IMG/VR virus record: IMGVR_UViG_2537561829_000009
Location: 1 to 6,471 of that record
Reading direction: 5' to 3' (one strand)
Length of the DNA: 6,471 nt
Source: a virus
Taxonomy: Duplodnaviria; Heunggongvirae; Uroviricota; Caudoviricetes
Below are positions 1 to 6,471 of the stretch, piece by piece. Under the pieces are notes generated by a model that ran no database searches, was not told the DNA's origin, and was given only the letters and a program-made list of their open reading frames with translations. The translations under genes and the position numbers were made by a program. The stretch's first letter is position 1; the number at the start of each line of letters is the position of its first letter.

Positions 1-315
1 TTCGCCATATTTTCTATATTTTTCAAGCCAGTTGCATACAGTACCAAAGGCTGGTATTCCGTGTTTTACCGCTACTTCACGAACAGAAAAACAGTCATCC
101 ACGACTTCTTTTACTACTGTGAGTTTTAACTCAGCAGAATAGCGTCCTTTTTTACCCGTAAGTATGCTTATCCCATGTTCCCGATAGGCATAAGCCCATT
201 TTCTTACTGTGCAGGGACTGATACCGTACATCCTTGCTACAGATTTCAGACTCAACTCTCCCTCCAGGTACTTTTCTGATACTACCTTTTTGAACTCCAA
301 TGAAAACTTTTCCAT
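1..315 (-). CDS. IS3-family (IS150-group-like) transposase OrfA, N-terminal helix-turn-helix part; start codon inside the window, 3' end runs off the window start
   Basis: Translating the minus strand from the ATG at 315..313 gives 105 codons with no stop down to position 1: MEKFSLEFKKVVSEKYLEGELSLKSVARMYGISPCTVRKWAYAYREHGISILTGKKGRYSAELKLTVVKEVVDDCFSVREVAVKHGIPAFGTVCNWLEKYRKYGE. This ORF is not in the supplied track because it is truncated by the window edge. It has the duplicated HTH pattern (YGIS..TV.KW...Y.EHG, then S.REVA..HGIP...V..WL.KY...GE) that I recognise from OrfA proteins of the IS150 group of the IS3 family. The region is visibly more AT-rich than the phage genes next to it. The family call is from memory, not a search. 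Confidence 0.7.
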   Translation of the reverse strand, partial: MEKFSLEFKKVVSEKYLEGELSLKSVARMYGISPCTVRKWAYAYREHGISILTGKKGRYSAELKLTVVKEVVDDCFSVREVAVKHGIPAFGTVCNWLEKYRKYGE

Positions 316-362
316 GCATCCTCAGTTTTTGGTCTGGTGTCTAACCTTTGGGGCGCAGTTCA
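1..362 (-). mobile_element. Partial insertion sequence (IS3 family), one end only; inner boundary approximate, somewhere in 316..362
   Basis: OrfA occupies 1..315. Read on the minus strand, the 47 nt upstream of its ATG are TGAACTGCGCCCCAAAGGTTAGACACCAGACCAAAAACTGAGGATGC. A TGAAC start about 45 nt before orfA is typical of IS3-family terminal inverted repeats, which would put the IS end at 362. The other IS end is outside the window, so the inverted repeat cannot be confirmed. Confidence 0.45.
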
Positions 363-2818
363 TTACCAATGGACACAACACCGCTGGTATTATTAATTGT
401 AATCGGTCGCAAACTGTTCCATGAACCTAACGTATCTCCTGATGCTGTTAGCATGAAATATGTGCTGCCGCCGTCATTACGGATAAAGAACCCATAGTTA
501 CCGTAAGCAATGCGGAAACCATTTGCATATTTTGAAACGATCTCACCAGAAGACGTTACCCCCCCAGATAATGTGCCACCTGAAAGCGGTAATGCTCCTA
601 CATCAGAAGCTGTTGGTTTGTTTCTGGTGTTATAAGAACGACGCCAGCCTGGCGCATAACCACTTCCATTGTACACATAAATAAATTCCGCATTATTAAC
701 ACCACCATGACCCGATGTTGTTGTCGTTGTAACACGAATAGTGTAATTGCTTGTTGCCTTATTACTAAACACCTCAATCACGGAACCAGATAGATCGATC
801 CTACCGCAACCAGTGTCGTCTATATAATTATTGTTGGCGTAAACCCATGAGCACCGTGCAATCCAATATTTGTTTGAAAATGCACCCTGATTATTTAGCC
901 ACGTTATAAACTGAGCAGTCGTAAATGCTGTTCCGTTACCACTATTTAACCATCCGGCGGCAGCGGTTGGTGCGTTTATATCAGCCGGCTGAGGTCTAAA
1001 TCCAGTCGTGTAAACCTGCTCCCAACCACTTTCAAAACCATAACCGTCTCTTGAAGAACGGTAGAACAGACCACCATTTCTGTAATGCGCCTTCATCTGC
1101 AGGGTCCGGCAACTTCCGACTCCGGTATAGAAGTTAACCAGAATATAGCTGTCGCCAGAGCGGGTGACATTGTAAGCGCCTGATTCGGCATTCCAGGGAA
1201 CGCCACCATCCGCATCGGCATACGTATCCGTTGCCCTTCTGGCAAAAGCAGCCACATGCGCGGCGGTTAAAGTGATATCCGCAGTCAGTGCTTTACCGTT
1301 AACTTTTCGGTTAGATGGCACCCTGCTATTCGCATTGTCATTGGCTGCTTTAACTGCTTTTGGCGTTGCGGCCAGCGATTCACTGGTGCTATCAACAGCA
1401 CTGCTAAGTTTCACAACACCTTTAGTTGTAAGGCTTGCGTCTTCCATCGCAACTGCACCGGCAATCTCTTCAGCACGATCAGCAGCAGCTTCCGCACGGG
1501 TCGCAGCGGATTCAGCAGCAGTTTTGCTCTGAGATGCTGCCGTCGCACTGCCTGCCGCCTCTGTTGCTTTCGTGGATGCCGTCGTGGCGCTGCCCTTCGC
1601 TGCTGACGCCTGTCTGGTCGCCTCATCTTTTGAAGCAGACGCAGATGATGCCGATGACGCCGCAGAACTGGCTGACGATGCGGCTGCCGCCTTAGAGGAA
1701 GCAGCATTGTCTGCTGAAGTCTTTGCATTTGTTTCAGAGGTTTTTGCTGCAGAAGAAGACCTCGCTGCTGCAGTGGCTTGCTCAGTGGCTTTGCCCGCCT
1801 TCGTTGTGGCTGTTGAAGCGGATGATGCGGCGCTTTCTGCCGATTTTCCGGCGGCGGTGGCACTGGCTGAGGCCTGCCCGGCACTTGTTGACGCGGCACT
1901 GGCAGACGACGCAGCCGCTGTTTTTGAACCTGCCGCAGCTGAGGCGCTCTGTCCCGCTGCTGTTTCAGAAGACTTAGCGTTCGTCTCGGACGTTTTTGCC
2001 GCCTTCGCGGAATTTCCTGCCGCCGTTGCCGAGGAAGCTGCATTACTGGCACTTGATGATGCATTCGTTTCTGATGATTTCGCTGCCTCTTTTGAGGCCG
2101 CCGCACCCCGTGCCGAGGTGGCAGCTTCTGACGCCTTTGTGGTCGCGGCGGATGCAGAAGTGGCTGCAGATTTTTGTGACGCTGCCGCATTCGTTTCTGA
2201 CGTTTTCGCGGCACTGGCACTGGTAGCTGCCGCGCTTTTTGAGGACTCTGCGGCGGCAGCACTTTTTGATGCTTCAGTGGCCTTTGTTGATGCTGTTCCT
2301 GCGCTGGAAGACGCTGACTGAGCCGACGACGCGGCCTGTCCGGCTGACGTGCTGGCTGCACGTGCTGAGCCTGCAGCATCAGTTGCACGGGTTGCCGCCT
2401 CACGGGCTGATGTGCCGGCATCGCTGGCTGACTTCTTCGCGGCTGCCGTGTTCTGTGCCACTGCGGACGCGTTACGCGCCACCTCTTCCACCATCAGTTC
2501 AAAGCGGCGCAGTGCCTCCGGACGGACATCATCCTCCGTCATGGCACCGAGAAAATCATTCAGCGTACCCGGTTGTGAGTCTTCATACACGGTGATGGTC
2601 CCGGCATGCGATGGCGGGAAGCCTTCCACCAACAGAATAACGCTGTACTGACCGTACTCAACGTCCATGCTGTAACGCCCGGCTTCATCCGGATTTTCTG
2701 AGGCCACCGTGTTCGCCACCACCGTGGTGCTGTTACGTTTTGCTTTCAGCTGGATTGTACAGTTCTGTACCGGTTTACCTGCACCGTCTTTCAGTACACC
2801 TGAAATCTTTACTGCCAT
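341..2818 (-). CDS. stf: Side tail fibre protein Stf (lambda Stf-like N-terminus and Ala/Ser/Thr-rich rod; divergent C-terminal domain; probably 3'-truncated by the adjacent IS)
   Basis: The track ORF 341..2824 begins MNMAVKISG with a GTG; the likely true start is the ATG at 2818..2816, preceded by GGGGTGA as a Shine-Dalgarno about 6 nt upstream. The N-terminus MAVKISGVLKDGAGKPVQNCTIQLKAKRNSTTVVANTVASENPDEAGRYSMDVEYGQYSVILLVEGFPPSHAGTITVYEDSQPGTLNDFLGAMTEDD matches lambda Stf as I recall it. A long KTSETNA-type Ala/Ser/Thr-rich rod follows. The C-terminal part carries tail-fibre motifs (GALPLSGGTLSGGVT, GFFIRNDGGSTYFMLTASGD). The stop TAG is at 343..341, only 25 bp from the IS orfA start. Confidence 0.88.
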   Translation of the reverse strand: MAVKISGVLKDGAGKPVQNCTIQLKAKRNSTTVVANTVASENPDEAGRYSMDVEYGQYSVILLVEGFPPSHAGTITVYEDSQPGTLNDFLGAMTEDDVRPEALRRFELMVEEVARNASAVAQNTAAAKKSASDAGTSAREAATRATDAAGSARAASTSAGQAASSAQSASSSAGTASTKATEASKSAAAAESSKSAAATSASAAKTSETNAAASQKSAATSASAATTKASEAATSARGAAASKEAAKSSETNASSSASNAASSATAAGNSAKAAKTSETNAKSSETAAGQSASAAAGSKTAAASSASAASTSAGQASASATAAGKSAESAASSASTATTKAGKATEQATAAARSSSAAKTSETNAKTSADNAASSKAAAASSASSAASSASSASASKDEATRQASAAKGSATTASTKATEAAGSATAASQSKTAAESAATRAEAAADRAEEIAGAVAMEDASLTTKGVVKLSSAVDSTSESLAATPKAVKAANDNANSRVPSNRKVNGKALTADITLTAAHVAAFARRATDTYADADGGVPWNAESGAYNVTRSGDSYILVNFYTGVGSCRTLQMKAHYRNGGLFYRSSRDGYGFESGWEQVYTTGFRPQPADINAPTAAAGWLNSGNGTAFTTAQFITWLNNQGAFSNKYWIARCSWVYANNNYIDDTGCGRIDLSGSVIEVFSNKATSNYTIRVTTTTTSGHGGVNNAEFIYVYNGSGYAPGWRRSYNTRNKPTASDVGALPLSGGTLSGGVTSSGEIVSKYANGFRIAYGNYGFFIRNDGGSTYFMLTASGDTLGSWNSLRPITINNTSGVVSIGNELRPKG
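1470..2430 (-). repeat. Low-complexity Ala/Ser/Thr-rich repetitive coding region inside stf (fibre rod)
   Basis: Stf residues ~130..450 are almost entirely A/S/T/K/E/G with recurring units such as AAKTSETNA, KSSETAAGQSASAAAG and SSASSAASSASSA. The DNA is GC-rich and lacks stops in several frames, which produces the long overlapping track ORFs 1411..2421(-), 1572..2321(+) and others. Boundaries are approximate. Confidence 0.6.
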
Positions 2819-2828
2819 ATTCACCCCA

Positions 2829-2856
2829 CAAAAAAGCCCGCCAGAACCGGCGGGCT
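2829..2856 (-). terminator. Putative intrinsic (rho-independent) terminator between lom and stf, oriented for minus-strand transcription
   Basis: Perfect 8-bp stem 2835..2842 (AGCCCGCC) pairing with 2849..2856 (GGCGGGCT), 6-nt loop AGAACC. On the minus strand the hairpin is followed immediately by TTTTTTGTGGGG (complement of the A-run 2830..2835). The plus strand has no T-run after the hairpin, so it is unidirectional. It lies 27 bp downstream of the lom stop and overlaps the stf ribosome-binding region. Confidence 0.6.
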
Positions 2857-2882
2857 GTCATAACACTGTGTTACCTGGCTAA

Positions 2883-3482
2883 TCAGAACTTATAACCGAC
2901 ACCCACGATGAAACCGTCAGTGCGCCAGTCGCCACTGCCGGAGCCTTCATAAGCGACATCAATGGCCACGGATTCGGTCGGGTTAAACTGCACGCCAGCC
3001 CCCCACGCCAGAGACATGTTGCTGTGGCGACCGTCATCACTTCCGGTCAGCACATCGTGCGTTTTCCCCTTGTTGTCAGTTACGCGGAGATAATCCCCGG
3101 AGAAAGTCGACACACGGCTGTAAGCCACACCCACCATCGCATACGCGCTGAACCATTCATTCACGCGTACAGACGGCCCCGCCATCACGCTGAACCAGCG
3201 GTTACGCACGGAATCTTCATGCCAGCGGGTATCGCTGTAGCGCGTTTTTTGCTCATCCTCAGCATTGGCATAACTGAAGGACGTAATCAGCCCCAGCGCG
3301 TCCGTAAACTCATAACGGTATTTCACGTTAATCCCGTTCAGATTATCGCTGCCGGGAGCGTTCGTACGGGCATGAAGATACCCTGCGCTCAGTGTGGCCT
3401 GCTGCTCAGACGCCCATGCAGGCGCACCGGATACGGCCAGACAGATGGCTGCGGACAAAATGGCTGCACAAACTTTACGCAT
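2883..3482 (-). CDS. lom: Lom outer membrane protein (Ail/Lom/OmpX-type 8-strand beta-barrel; lambdoid prophage moron)
   Basis: 199-aa ORF with ATG at 3482..3480 and GAGAGG Shine-Dalgarno about 6 nt upstream. N-terminal signal peptide MRKVCAAILSAAICLAVSGAPAWA with an A-W-A cleavage motif. C-terminal ...GFIVGVGYKF ends in an aromatic residue, as outer-membrane beta-barrels do. The sequence is near-identical along its length to lambda Lom as I recall it (NLNGINVKYRYEFTD, RWHEDSVRNRWFSVMAGPSVRVNEWFSAYAM, LAWGAGVQFNPTESVAID). Position between J and stf matches the lambda gene order. Confidence 0.93.
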   Translation of the reverse strand: MRKVCAAILSAAICLAVSGAPAWASEQQATLSAGYLHARTNAPGSDNLNGINVKYRYEFTDALGLITSFSYANAEDEQKTRYSDTRWHEDSVRNRWFSVMAGPSVRVNEWFSAYAMVGVAYSRVSTFSGDYLRVTDNKGKTHDVLTGSDDGRHSNMSLAWGAGVQFNPTESVAIDVAYEGSGSGDWRTDGFIVGVGYKF

Positions 3483-3504
3483 AATTACCTCTCGCTTTTC
3501 TGCA

Positions 3505-3530
3505 ATAAAAAAGGCGCCATTTCTGGCGCC
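3505..3530 (-). terminator. Putative intrinsic terminator between J and lom, oriented for minus-strand transcription
   Basis: Perfect 7-bp stem 3513..3519 (GGCGCCA) pairing with 3524..3530 (TGGCGCC), 4-nt loop TTTC. On the minus strand it is followed by TTTTTTAT (complement of the A-run 3507..3512). It lies 20 bp downstream of the J stop and about 20 bp upstream of the lom Shine-Dalgarno. Confidence 0.6.
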
Positions 3531-3549
3531 CGTATATGGGTTATAAAAT

Positions 3550-5073
3550 TCAGCTGATACTGATGCCTGCGGTGGCTTTCTTCATCACCACAACCAGCAA
3601 ATCGCTGATACTTGCTGTGGGATACCAGTTATTTACCAGCCATGATGACACCGAAAACTCCAGCGTCATGTGGCCGCGACCGGCAGGCATATCAATAACG
3701 CCACTGTAAATCAGCGTATTATCCAGCGCGGTACGGTTATAAATTTCAGCACCGTTTTTCCGTACTATCAGGCGGCATGACGAATAAATATCGTTATTCT
3801 CCCTCTCATGTTTAGCGCCGCTGAATGCCACCGCCGGAATAACAATCTGCCGGTCAAACGGCTGATCGTCATAAACCCTGACGGTGATGGTCCCTGATGG
3901 CCACCGTTCCGGTGCACGGGAGTCCCGGGGGAAAGCTTTGCCCACTGTTTTAACGAGATCGCCTTCAATCTGGTTGGCGGACAGTTTTCCCAGAACCCGA
4001 CAGTTCTCGTTAATCGTGACGTTGTTGAGCGTCCCGGAGTTCGCATTCACGCTGCCACTGATATCTGCATTTTTCGCCGTCAGCCGCCCGTTCGGTGTCA
4101 GGGAAAATACCGGAGGATTACCGCCGCTGGTAATGGTGGGAGCCGTCAGGCGTTTCAGGAACACGTCGTTCATGAATATCTGATCGCCCTGCCCAACAAA
4201 CATCGGCTTTGTGTTGCCATTCGCAGGATTAATCATCGCAATCCTGTCTGCCGCCAGCAGCACCTGACTCTGCATGCCGTCAGGGGTGTTCTCAATACCG
4301 GCACCAATACCCGCGATATAAAGGCGTCCGTCCTGCATCTGCTGCAGCTTCACAGCCCACATGCTGTTCAGGTTATTATTTGTATCAACCTGAACCTTCT
4401 GTATCTGCTGGATCGCTGCACTCTGGTCTTCCAGTTTCTTATTGACGGTCTGTGTGATTTCATTGCTGACATCCGTAATGGACGTCCTGATTTCAGCCAG
4501 GTCAGGCGCAAGCTGACCGTTATCAATCTGCGTCCACAACTCCTGGGCCAGATGTGTTTTCCCGATTTCTCCTTTGAAAAAATCCAGATAGCCGGATGCG
4601 TCATCACTCGGCTGACCAACAGCCTCCACGAATGCCGATTTGCCAACGGTGTTCACACTGCGAACGTAAAAATAATAATTATGGCCCGGCCTGATATTGA
4701 TACTGGCGGCTATCCAGTACAGCGCCGTACCAAGATAGCGGGCTGTGGTTTCAACCTGCCTGATATCCGCAATCCGCTTTTCCGAGAACCAGAACTCAAA
4801 CTGTACCGTCGGGTCATAAACGGCAAGATGCGGCGTGGCGGTTATCTGAAAATAGCCCGGCGTCAGCTCAAGCCGCGACGGCACTGCAGGTGCGGCAATC
4901 CGGAACGATACCGATGCCGGATCGCCCTGCTGCCCCCACGCATTTACCGCCCGGACTGTCAGCCTGTAGTTCCCTGGCGCCAGCTGCGTGAAGCGGTATG
5001 TGGTTTCCGTCGTCCGGGCCGTGCTGACCAGCCGCTCACTGCCGTCATCCGCTGCCACGGTCAGGCGAAGCAA
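3550..5073 (-). CDS. J: Intact C-terminal segment of J (fibronectin-like and receptor-binding region); a gene caller would report it as a separate CDS
   Basis: Track ORF 3550..5073, 507 aa. The 5073 start is an ORF-finder artefact (TTG inside the J frame). Content is J-like throughout ([64 protein letters not shown]). The last ~150 aa differ substantially from lambda J. Confidence 0.55.
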
Positions 5074-5449
5074 AGCTCACCCCTTCACCACCTTCGGCGT
5101 GTCCCAGCGCCAGCACCTGTATTCCCCGCTGTCTGCGGTGACTTCGGCGGTCAGTGCTGCACGCTGGCGGCGTGACACCATTCACCGTGCCGCTCTGGTC
5201 CGTCAAAGTGCGCCCCGTTATCCACGATGGCTTCTTTTCCGGTACATGCTGCACGCAGTGATGGCATACGTACCGTCGTCGTTCTCACGGATACTCACAC
5301 AGCGGAACAGGCGCTGGCGCAGCGTCGGCAGCTTCAGCCCCCACACGCTGTATCGGCAACGCCGTCAGGAACCCGGCTCACTTTCACCTTCACGCCGTCG
5401 GTGAGGACTGACCTCCACGCTGACCGGATCCCTCCGTCAACCAGGCTTA

Positions 5450-6471
5450 TCAGCGTGGTCCGGAGGATGGCAGCGTGATTTCACGGTCGAGCGTCAGCGT
5501 CCGGGTCTGGCTGTTCACCGCCAGCACGCGCCCCGGTGCTGATACCGGCATAGTCATCATCGCAGATTTCAATGACATCCCCGGTACATGGCGAAGCCCT
5601 TCGCACCCACGCTGAAGTCCACGGTCTGCGTTCCAGCAGTTCGTTTTAATCAGCCACAGCCCGGCGCGGTGTGCCTGCCCCCGGCTGGTACAGCCAAAAG
5701 CATCCATCTTCGTGACGTTACGACCGTAACGGGCAATGGCCTGAGTATCTTCAACAAGCTCTGTCGCCGTCTCCCAGCCGTTGTTCGGGTCAATCCAGTT
5801 CACCTCAACGGCATTATGGCGGTCCTTCAGGGCGCTGAAGCTGTAGCGGAACGGCGCACCATCATCCGGCATCACCACATTACTGCGGTTATAGGTCCAC
5901 ACCTTATCTGATGGTCGGTCCTGCACGAACATCAGCGTCTGCCCGTTCCATACCGGCATACAGCGCATCGCCGAGCAGAAATCACTGAGCACATCCCACG
6001 CCTTGCGCTGTGTGGTCAGGTACGCATTACAGGTGATGCGCGGCTCCGTGCCGCCAAAGCCGTCCGGCACCGACTGGTCGCAGTACTGGCCGATGACATA
6101 CAGCGCCCATTTATCTACATCCGCTGCACCAAGACGTTTCCCCATGCCGTAGCGCGGATGGGTCAGCATATCCCACATACACCAGGCCATGTTGTTGCTG
6201 TATGCTGGCTTAAACGTTCCGTCCCAGATACCGCTGTATTGCCGCGTCTGCGGGTTATAGTTCGACGGCACCTGCAGAATGCGCCCGCGCAGATGATAAT
6301 TACGGCTCACCTGCTGGCTGCCGAACTGCTCCGAATCCACCTGTACGCCGACCAGTGCCGTGTTCGGGTAGCACTGTTTCACATCGATGATTTCGGTGTA
6401 TGACGACCAGAGCGTTTTGTTCTGCAGCTGGTCTGTGGTGCTGTCCGGCGTCATCCTGCGCATCCGGATAT
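5450..6471 (-). CDS. J: Upstream in-frame segment of J (5' end beyond window) ending at a premature stop created by frameshifts
   Basis: Track ORF 5450..6463, which continues in frame to the window edge at 6471. It is a clean J match down to about 5642; the last ~65 codons before the TGA at 5452..5450 alternate between J-matching and out-of-frame stretches. Confidence 0.5.
   Translation of the reverse strand, partial: IRMRRMTPDSTTDQLQNKTLWSSYTEIIDVKQCYPNTALVGVQVDSEQFGSQQVSRNYHLRGRILQVPSNYNPQTRQYSGIWDGTFKPAYSNNMAWCMWDMLTHPRYGMGKRLGAADVDKWALYVIGQYCDQSVPDGFGGTEPRITCNAYLTTQRKAWDVLSDFCSAMRCMPVWNGQTLMFVQDRPSDKVWTYNRSNVVMPDDGAPFRYSFSALKDRHNAVEVNWIDPNNGWETATELVEDTQAIARYGRNVTKMDAFGCTSRGQAHRAGLWLIKTNCWNADRGLQRGCEGLRHVPGMSLKSAMMTMPVSAPGRVLAVNSQTRTLTLDREITLPSSGPR

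What the first reader, a model, noticed from the sequence alone, without database searches (positions are those of the whole stretch)
2829..3530. Intact lom moron bracketed by two terminators while both flanking tail genes are damaged
lom has a complete signal peptide, a beta-barrel C-terminus and its own Shine-Dalgarno, and is the only fully intact phage gene in the window. J upstream is frameshifted and stf downstream is IS-disrupted. Hairpin plus T-tract terminators lie in both spacers (3505..3530 and 2829..2856), the arrangement expected of a self-contained cassette within the late operon. Lom-family proteins are known lysogenic-conversion factors, so its preservation may reflect host-level selection. 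No convincing promoter was identified, so independent expression is unproven.
Basis: partly seen in the sequence, partly recalled or inferred. Interest (0 to 1): 0.45.

Follow-up and report, generated by a model that had tools for sequence, protein, structure and literature searches.

The report
Ordinary lom gene between two terminators
This is the well-known lom outer-membrane-protein gene of a lambda-like prophage, sitting between two real, conserved transcription terminators as it does in phage lambda itself, and nothing in this window shows that selection has spared it.

Summary
The sequence facts hold. All phage genes are on the minus strand. lom (2883-3482) is an intact 199-aa Ail/Lom gene. 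Strong hairpin-plus-T-tract terminators lie in both spacers (3504-3531 and 2829-2856). stf is cut by an IS3-family element (1-362), and J is frameshifted. No promoter is detectable.

- The J–T–lom–T–stf layout is found in all 82 lom loci examined, including lambda, so it is already known biology.
- Six lambdoid phages that lack lom keep the upstream hairpin between J and stf. The presence/absence unit is therefore 2831-3503: a 21-nt leader, lom and the downstream terminator. That unit has no room for a promoter of its own.
- The J "damage" is 26 single-base deletions in 570 bp, with no substitutions against intact alleles. This looks like sequencing or assembly error.
- stf, lom and the J 3' end (363-4051) are 100% identical to an E. 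coli prophage whose J is intact, so there has been no time for differential decay.
- dN/dS for lom (0.18) lies between the J C-terminus (0.22) and the stf N-terminus (0.12).
- In K-12 Rac the pattern is reversed: lomR is IS-disrupted and stfR is intact.

Selective preservation is not supported. Interest is low.

The parts
1..362 (-). End of an IS3-family insertion sequence. The terminal inverted repeat ...GGGGCGCAGTTCA ends at 362. The orfA ATG is at 314 and the ORF runs off the left edge of the window.
   Evidence: 98-99% identical to IS3-family copies in 250 E. coli genomes, in unrelated contexts.
363..2818 (-). 5' two-thirds of the side tail fibre gene stf (ATG at 2818-2816), truncated by the IS after about codon 819 of 1190.
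   Evidence: Pfam phage_tail_N 1-134 and Gp34_trimer. 100% identical to the stf of E. coli NCCP 13717.
2829..2856 (-). lom-stf intrinsic terminator (T_lom). Stem-loop AGCCCGCCG-GTTC-TGGCGGGCT at 2856..2835, then the T-tract.
   Evidence: Present in lambda with only wobble differences. 58 of 82 loci carry this version. The other 24 carry a different canonical terminator just before stf.
2861..2873 (.). Perfect palindrome TAACACAGTGTTA in the conserved 30 nt after the lom stop codon. Function unknown.
   Evidence: Read from the sequence. 2 of 30 columns are polymorphic, against 77 of 199 lom third positions.
2883..3482 (-). lom, an Ail/Lom-family outer-membrane beta-barrel protein of 199 aa. It is intact. 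The signal peptide is encoded at 3411-3482.
   Evidence: By DNA identity it is the same as the CDS WP_001532653.1. 43% identical to lambda Lom. Matches PDB 9wso_C, OmpX and Ail.
3483..3503 (-). 21-nt lom leader GCAGAAAAGCGAGAGGTAATT, with the Shine-Dalgarno GAGAGG at 3488-3493.
   Evidence: The 30 nt before the ATG are invariant in 55 aligned loci (0 of 30 polymorphic columns against 77 of 199 lom third positions, Fisher p = 2e-6).
2831..3503 (-). Presence/absence unit (the 'moron'): leader + lom + T_lom, 673 nt. Both joints fall at terminator T-tracts.
   Evidence: Comparison with the lom-less phages 4A7 and PhiR57_1.
3504..3531 (-). J-distal intrinsic terminator (T_J). Stem-loop GGGCGCCA-GAAA-TGGCGCCT at 3531..3512, then TTTTTTATT. 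It is a resident feature of the J-stf spacer and is not specific to lom.
   Evidence: Present in all 82 loci, 100% of cells paired, 2 pairs with compensatory changes. The same hairpin lies between J and stf in lom-less phages.
3550..6471 (-). 3' 84% of the tail-tip gene J (stop codon at 3552-3550). The reading frame is broken between 5072 and 5642.
   Evidence: Pfam J domains. PDB lambda gpJ. Alignment to the intact gpJ of NCCP 13717.
5072..5642 (.). Cluster of 26 single-base deletions with no accompanying substitutions. Probably a sequencing or assembly artefact.

Best explanation
The locus is the standard lom accessory gene of a lambda-like prophage.

Shown from sequence and comparison:
- The layout is J stop, terminator T_J, a 21-nt leader with a Shine-Dalgarno, lom, terminator T_lom, then the Shine-Dalgarno and start of stf.
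- A terminator between J and stf is a resident feature of this tail region. It is there whether or not lom is present.
- The unit that is present or absent among related phages is leader + lom + T_lom (2831-3503). Its joints lie at the T-tracts of the two terminators.

Inferred from established lambda biology, not shown here:
- During lytic growth, RNA polymerase modified by the Q antiterminator at pR' ignores both terminators, so J, lom, stf and tfa are made from one late transcript.
- In the repressed prophage, T_J stops stray transcription coming out of J, and T_lom keeps any lom transcript out of stf.

Expression in the lysogen: Lom is reported as expressed in lambda and phi24B lysogens. 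The variable unit has no space for its own promoter, so that expression must come from one of two sources. Either there is a weak start overlapping the T_J tail and leader, or there is a promoter inside J with partial read-through of T_J. This point is unresolved.

Why lom is intact here: lom is a small target, the IS insertion in stf is one recent event, and the J lesions are most likely sequence error. Selection need not be invoked.
For: - lom identity and integrity.
- Terminators are far beyond chance and lie only in the two spacers. They are also the two strongest sites in a 12-kb stretch of the closest intact prophage.
- Conservation: T_J is in 82 of 82 loci with compensatory G-C to A-U and C-G to U-A changes. 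A canonical terminator lies before stf in all 82. Lambda has both. A Citrobacter relative keeps a T_J with a different stem.
- lom-less phages keep T_J and lose exactly leader + lom + T_lom.
- No promoter found.
- Lysogenic expression of lom is reported, and its promoter is described as little known: PMC7067206, PMC1151598, PMC4651098, PMC2147009.
- No decay time: 363-4051 is identical to a prophage whose J is annotated as intact.
- The J lesions are artefact-like.
- dN/dS is 0.18 for lom, 0.22 for the J C-terminus and 0.12 for the stf N-terminus.
Against: - Termination and Q read-through were not measured. They are inferred from structure and from lambda.
- The direction of the indel is unknown. 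lom-less phages could have arisen by deletion between the two T-tracts, in which case the assignment of terminators to J or to lom is a convention.
- The invariant 30-nt leader and the conserved 30 nt after the stop codon point to extra regulatory constraint that this account does not explain.
- I could not find the window's source record, so sequence error in J is an inference from the pattern of differences.
Confidence: 0.8

Rival explanations
1. One reading: lom with both terminators is a self-contained moron cassette, kept intact by selection on the host while the flanking tail genes decay.
For: lom is the only intact phage ORF in the window. Terminators lie on both sides. Lom is reported to be expressed in lysogens and to aid adhesion.
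Against: - The upstream terminator stays behind in lom-less phages.
- lom GC content (56.3%) equals that of J (56.6%), so there is no foreign-DNA signature.
- The mosaic joint relative to lambda lies inside lom near 3010, not at a terminator.
- 363-4051 is identical to a prophage with an intact J.
- The J lesions look artefactual.
- dN/dS for lom is not lower than that of both neighbours.
- K-12 Rac shows the opposite pattern.
Confidence: 0.08
2. T_J acts as a leader attenuator for lom. A promoter in the last few hundred bases of J starts transcripts that mostly stop at T_J, and conditional read-through sets Lom levels in the lysogen.
For: There is no room for a promoter between T_J and the ATG. 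Weak promoter-like sites occur in the J 3' end, for example ATGAAG-17-CAGTAT ending at 3557. The leader is invariant. One array study did not detect lom in a lysogen, which fits low or conditional expression.
Against: The candidate promoters score no better than background sites elsewhere in the window. The same hairpin is present where there is no lom to regulate. No Rfam family matches the region.
Confidence: 0.12
3. The hairpins serve mainly as 3'-end stability barriers that set the relative amounts of J, lom and stf segments of the late polycistronic mRNA. Stopping RNA polymerase would then be secondary.
For: Q-modified polymerase is expected to ignore them during late transcription, which is established lambda biology. 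Stable G+C-rich stems at gene ends are typical exonuclease barriers. The stems are conserved by compensatory change.
Against: The uninterrupted U-tracts directly after the stems are conserved as well. A pure stability element does not need them. This reading does not exclude the terminator reading.
Confidence: 0.1

Closest known systems
Phage lambda lom (lambdap26) and its J-lom and lom-stf (orf-401) spacers
   Same: Same gene order J-lom-stf. There is a hairpin plus T-tract in both spacers. The lom-stf spacer, the last ~128 nt of lom and the stf N-terminus are homologous to lambda, 86% identical over the 1,101-nt aligned block. The distance from T-tract to ATG is also short (21-24 nt).
   Different: Lom is only 43% identical overall (199 against 206 aa). 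The J C-terminus and the T_J stem sequence also differ.
Morons as defined for HK97/HK022 (Juhala et al. 2000; Cumby et al. 2012, PMC3594210)
   Same: It is extra DNA at a fixed place in an otherwise collinear late operon, absent from close relatives. It ends in its own terminator. It encodes a host-affecting protein that lambda expresses from the prophage.
   Different: No promoter of its own is detectable, and only 21 nt lie upstream of the ATG within the variable unit. GC content is the same as in the neighbouring genes.
Ail / OmpX / PagC / Rck family of small outer-membrane beta-barrels (Pfam PF06316, PF13505)
   Same: Full-length family match, and sequence matches to the solved structures of OmpX, Yersinia Ail and lambda Lom.
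   Different: It is phage-borne and embedded in a tail-gene operon. Its function was not tested here.
lomR of the K-12 cryptic prophage Rac
   Same: It occupies the same lom-stf-tfa neighbourhood in a decayed lambdoid prophage carrying an IS insertion.
   Different: In Rac, IS5 disrupts lomR and stfR is intact. In this window an IS3-family element disrupts stf and lom is intact.

Membership tests
Ail/Lom outer-membrane protein family (PF06316) | Full-length match to the family profile above the curated cut-off | tested here: met
   409.6 bits against a cut-off of 23, covering residues 1-199 of a 199-position profile.
Ail/Lom outer-membrane protein family (PF06316) | Cleavable N-terminal signal peptide and a C-terminal aromatic residue typical of outer-membrane barrels | tested here: met
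   Read from the translation: MRK + hydrophobic core + AWA|SE, and a C-terminus of ...GVGYKF. No dedicated predictor was run.
Ail/Lom outer-membrane protein family (PF06316) | Eight-stranded beta-barrel fold | not tested
   Only sequence matches to solved barrels were obtained: lambda Lom 9wso_C at E 5e-49, OmpX and Ail at about 1e-20. No model was built.
Moron (Juhala/Hendrix sense) | Present in some and absent from other, otherwise collinear, related phages at the same position | tested here: met
   Six lom-less lambdoid phages have J joined to stf by a 58-nt spacer. The indel is 673 nt.
Moron (Juhala/Hendrix sense) | Own terminator downstream of the gene | tested here: met
   T_lom at 2829-2856 lies inside the variable unit.
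Moron (Juhala/Hendrix sense) | Own promoter upstream of the gene | tested here: not met
   No sigma-70-like site was found. Only 21 nt of the variable unit precede the ATG. Other sigma factors and activator-dependent promoters were not excluded.
Moron (Juhala/Hendrix sense) | Base composition different from the surrounding genes | tested here: not met
   GC is 56.3% for lom and 56.6% for J. GC3 is 62.5% and 62.2%.
Moron (Juhala/Hendrix sense) | Expressed from the repressed prophage | not testable with these tools
   Reported for lambda and phi24B lom in the literature. One array study did not detect it.
Rho-independent (intrinsic) terminator | G+C-rich stem-loop followed directly by a U-tract on the coding strand | tested here: met
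   Both sites qualify: 8 and 9 pairs, -15.1 and -17.0 kcal/mol, each with a run of six T. The strict rule gives 0.003 sites per shuffled window.
Rho-independent (intrinsic) terminator | Structure kept in evolution | tested here: met
   T_J: 100% of cells paired and 2 pairs with compensatory changes. T_lom: only wobble changes and no double changes, so the support is weaker.
Rho-independent (intrinsic) terminator | Transcripts actually end there, and Q-modified polymerase reads through | not testable with these tools
   Needs Term-seq or in vitro transcription.

The most novel reading that the evidence does not exclude
The lom unit has no promoter of its own, and both of its joints lie at terminator T-tracts. 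The invariant 30-nt leader and the conserved palindrome after the stop codon (TAACACAGTGTTA) could be regulatory elements. Examples would be a start site built across the resident J terminator, or a target for a small RNA or a protein, that sets Lom expression in lysogens. Terminator T-tracts would then be preferred joints for gain and loss of accessory genes in late operons.
Probability: 0.15. Interest if true: 0.35.

Novelty: already known. Interest (0 to 1): 0.12.

Why it matters
It matters little beyond correct annotation. The window shows a textbook accessory gene in its usual place.

Two points are useful for anyone working on lom. First, the upstream terminator belongs to the J-stf spacer and not to lom. 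Second, the mobile unit carries no promoter, so the promoter behind the reported lysogenic expression, described in the literature as little known, must overlap or lie upstream of that terminator.

There is also a caution for genome scans. A run of single-base deletions with no substitutions should be read as sequence error before it is read as gene decay.

Tried and rejected
- Source of the window: exact searches for the IS/stf junction in genome contigs, metagenome contigs and viral contigs found nothing. Whether the J deletions appear in an independent record therefore remains unknown.
- Promoter search: the tool scan and my own -35/-10 weight matrix over 3441-4300, and over the matching lambda region, gave nothing above the window's background. 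The site TTTATT-17-AATTAT ending at 3481 was rejected because its start would fall inside the coding sequence. By eye I found no convincing PhoP box or sigma-E motif shared by the window and lambda. That check was from memory and was not a formal test.
- Literature: five full-text searches found no mapped lom transcription start. Liu et al. 2013 (PMC3718152) is not held.
- Rfam: nothing in or near lom. The only matches are sub-threshold isrG hits antisense to the stf repeats.
- PDB 9wso: I checked whether this lambda Lom entry also holds J or Stf, which would hint at a Lom-tail interaction. Neither query returned that entry.
- Class-2 loci: I first thought 24 of the 82 loci lacked a downstream terminator. 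Reading further showed a different canonical terminator just before stf in them too.
- Downstream hairpin: it shows no double compensatory changes, so covariation support exists only for the upstream one.

Full report
**What is in the window**

All phage genes read on the minus strand. From right to left the window holds:
- the 3' 84% of the tail-tip gene J (3550-6471);
- a 67-nt spacer;
- lom (2883-3482);
- a 64-nt spacer;
- the first two-thirds of the side-tail-fibre gene stf (ATG at 2818);
- the end of an IS3-family insertion sequence, from position 362 leftwards.

Pfam confirms each assignment. Lom matches Ail_Lom over all 199 profile positions at E 2.7e-123. stf has the prophage tail-fibre N-terminal domain. 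The J pieces carry the expected J domains.

**Checking the observation**

Both hairpins are real and strong. The scan ranks them first and second in the window: minus strand 3531..3512 followed by TTTTTTATT, and 2856..2835 followed by TTTTTTG. Folded alone they give -15.1 and -17.0 kcal/mol.

I also applied a stricter rule: at least 7 Watson-Crick pairs, at least 5 G-C pairs, then a run of at least 5 T. These are the only two sites on either strand. 300 dinucleotide-preserving shuffles of the window averaged 0.003 such sites. In the closest intact prophage they are also the two best sites in 12 kb of tail genes.

lom has a readable signal peptide (…SGAPAWA|SEQQ), a C-terminal …GVGYKF and a GAGAGG ribosome-binding site. 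stf is truly interrupted. Its match to an uninterrupted stf stops at the IS terminal repeat …GGGGCGCAGTTCA at position 362. No promoter-like site lies near lom in the tool scan or in my weight-matrix scan.

**The damage in J is suspicious**

Against E. coli NCCP 13717, the window is identical from 363 to 4051. The single mismatch in that alignment, at 360, lies in the IS end. The frame-breaking differences in J are 26 single-base deletions, all within 5072-5642, with no insertions and mostly outside homopolymers.

Against other E. coli genomes, the stretch 5000-5700 aligns with 701 identities in 727 columns. That means 26 gaps and no substitutions. None of 10,886 matching places in 5,426 complete genomes reaches 99% identity over this stretch.

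Natural decay would leave substitutions alongside indels. This pattern is what a poorly polished or low-quality stretch of an assembly looks like. I could not find the source record to check, so this remains an inference.

**How general the arrangement is**

I fetched 80 lom loci from viral contigs, plus lambda. Every one has a hairpin and T-tract between J and lom. Across the 14 distinct spacer variants, 100% of cells pair. Two stem positions show compensatory changes, G-C to A-U and C-G to U-A. In eight loci the loop is inverted (AGAAAT to ATTTCT).

Lambda has a hairpin with a different sequence at the same place. A Citrobacter relative with 69% identical Lom has yet another stem followed by the same T-tract.

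Downstream, 58 loci carry the window's type of terminator, which lambda shares with only wobble differences. The other 24 have a longer spacer that ends in a different canonical terminator just before stf. J–T–lom–T–stf is therefore the rule in this set of 82 loci, and the finding restates known lambda-type architecture.

**Which terminator belongs to lom**

I ran a search with the J 3' end joined to the stf 5' end. It found six lambdoid phages with no lom: 4A7, Lambda_4C10, ev087, ev110, PhiR57_1 and PhiR47_2. Their J-stf spacer reads J stop–ATTTTATAACCCAGATAC–GGGCGCCAGAAATGGCGCC–TTTTTTATT–TGTGGAGTGAATATG. That is the window's upstream hairpin and T-tract, joined directly to the sequence that follows the window's downstream T-tract.

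The presence/absence unit is therefore 2831-3503, 673 nt. It holds a 21-nt leader with the ribosome-binding site, lom, and the downstream terminator. A terminator between J and stf exists whether or not lom is there. Only the downstream one travels with lom, and the unit has no space for a promoter.

The direction of the event, insertion or deletion between the two T-tracts, cannot be told from these data.

Two further points weaken the cassette picture:
- lom has the same GC content as J (56.3% against 56.6%).
- Relative to lambda, the mosaic joints lie inside J (about 4363-4533) and inside lom (about 3010), not at the terminators.

**How it most likely works**

The steps shown here are the anatomy and its conservation. 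The steps below are inferred from established lambda biology.
- In lytic growth, polymerase modified by Q at pR' reads through intrinsic terminators, so J, lom, stf and tfa are co-transcribed.
- In the repressed prophage, the two terminators isolate lom from its neighbours.

The literature says lom is expressed in lambda lysogens (PMC7067206, PMC1151598). In phi24B its expression is described as constitutive and uncoupled from phage regulation (PMC4651098). One array study failed to detect it and noted that little is known about the lom promoter (PMC2147009).

Given the 21-nt leader, that promoter must either overlap the T_J tail or lie inside J and depend on read-through of T_J. I could not decide between these two.

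One unexplained signal remains. The 30 nt before the ATG are invariant in 55 aligned loci in which 39% of lom third positions vary (Fisher p = 2e-6). The 30 nt after the stop codon, which contain the palindrome TAACACAGTGTTA, have 2 variable columns (p = 3e-4).

**The selection claim**

It is not supported, for five reasons.
- The 3.7 kb from stf through lom into J is identical to a prophage whose J is annotated as intact. No time has passed in which differential decay could show.
- The J lesions are probably not real.
- Nei-Gojobori dN/dS across the related loci is 0.18 for lom, 0.22 for the J C-terminus and 0.12 for the stf N-terminus. These are ratios of pairwise means, and the pairs are not independent. 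All three genes are under ordinary purifying selection.
- lom is about 0.6 kb of a roughly 7.5-kb J+lom+stf target, so one or two random lesions would miss it about 85-92% of the time. This is simple arithmetic.
- In the K-12 Rac prophage the roles are reversed: lomR is split by IS5 and stfR and tfaR are intact.

**Comparison with known systems, and verdict**

The protein is a member of the Ail/Lom family. By DNA identity it is the already catalogued WP_001532653.1.

As a moron it meets the presence/absence and own-terminator criteria. It fails the own-promoter and deviant-composition criteria as tested here.

The finding is real at the sequence level but ordinary. It is already known biology, with an over-reading about selection. 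The only modest additions are the nucleotide-level boundaries of the lom unit and the consequence that its promoter cannot lie within it.

Noticed in passing
window 5072-5642: There are 26 single-base deletions in 570 bp of J, with no insertions, mostly outside homopolymers, and no substitutions against the best E. coli alleles. No place in 5,426 complete E. coli genomes reaches 99% identity here. This looks like an unpolished or low-quality stretch of the source assembly and not like gene decay.
   Followed up: yes
window 363-380; L083, L125, L126, L127, L128: Independent insertions of this IS3-family element are followed by similar host DNA 4-5 bp beyond the IS end. Examples: TTAC-CAATGGACACAAC in stf, TAAA-CAATGGACACAAT beside an integrase, TTTT-TAATGGACACTAT beside IS66 tnpA, and ATAA-CAGTGGCATCAAC in a dcrB-like gene. 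This suggests a target-site preference, possibly for a sequence resembling the subterminal TGGACA of the element's own ends.
   Followed up: partly
window about 3010 and about 4363-4533: Relative to lambda, the J C-terminal receptor-binding part, the J-lom spacer and the first ~470 nt of lom form one diverged block; only two short internal stretches (4000-4363 at 78%, 3286-3343 at 84%) still align, and Lom is 43% identical in protein. The last ~128 nt of lom, the terminator and the stf N-terminus are 86% identical, and the J middle part is 93% identical. One mosaic joint therefore lies inside lom.
   Followed up: partly
window 3483-3512 and 2853-2882 (palindrome at 2861-2873): The 30 nt before the lom ATG are invariant. 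The 30 nt after the stop codon, which contain the perfect palindrome TAACACAGTGTTA, are nearly invariant. This holds across 55 loci in which 39% of lom third codon positions vary. The constraint is unexplained.
   Followed up: partly
L003-L082, upstream hairpin loop (window 3518-3525 equivalent): Eight of the 82 loci carry the J-lom hairpin with its loop and closing pair inverted (CCAGAAATGG to CCATTTCTGG). This is the kind of flip expected from strand switching at a palindrome.
   Followed up: no
L094-L105 and other short loci: Assemblies of unrelated bacteria, including Neobacillus, Kitasatospora, Pseudomonas, Shewanella, Bradyrhizobium and Paenibacillus, hold low-coverage contigs encoding a Lom of lambda's length (618 nt); the one locus read (L094) also carries lambda's own J-lom and lom-stf spacers. 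Several of these contigs are about 48.4 kb long. This is almost certainly contamination by lambda control DNA.
   Followed up: no
window 1477-2238, + strand: Three sub-threshold Rfam hits to the Salmonella sRNA isrG (22-28 bits against a gathering score of 100) lie antisense to the Ala/Ser-rich repeat region of stf. They most likely reflect tail-fibre homology of the isrG locus and not an RNA gene.
   Followed up: no
L129 3390-4985 (E. coli K-12 Rac prophage): In K-12 Rac, lomR is split by IS5Y while the adjacent stfR and tfaR are intact. This is the mirror image of the window.
   Followed up: yes
PDB 9wso chain C: A solved structure entry for lambda Lom (206 aa) exists. Queries with this window's J and Stf did not return that entry. 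I could not find out what the other chains are or which paper describes it.
   Followed up: partly
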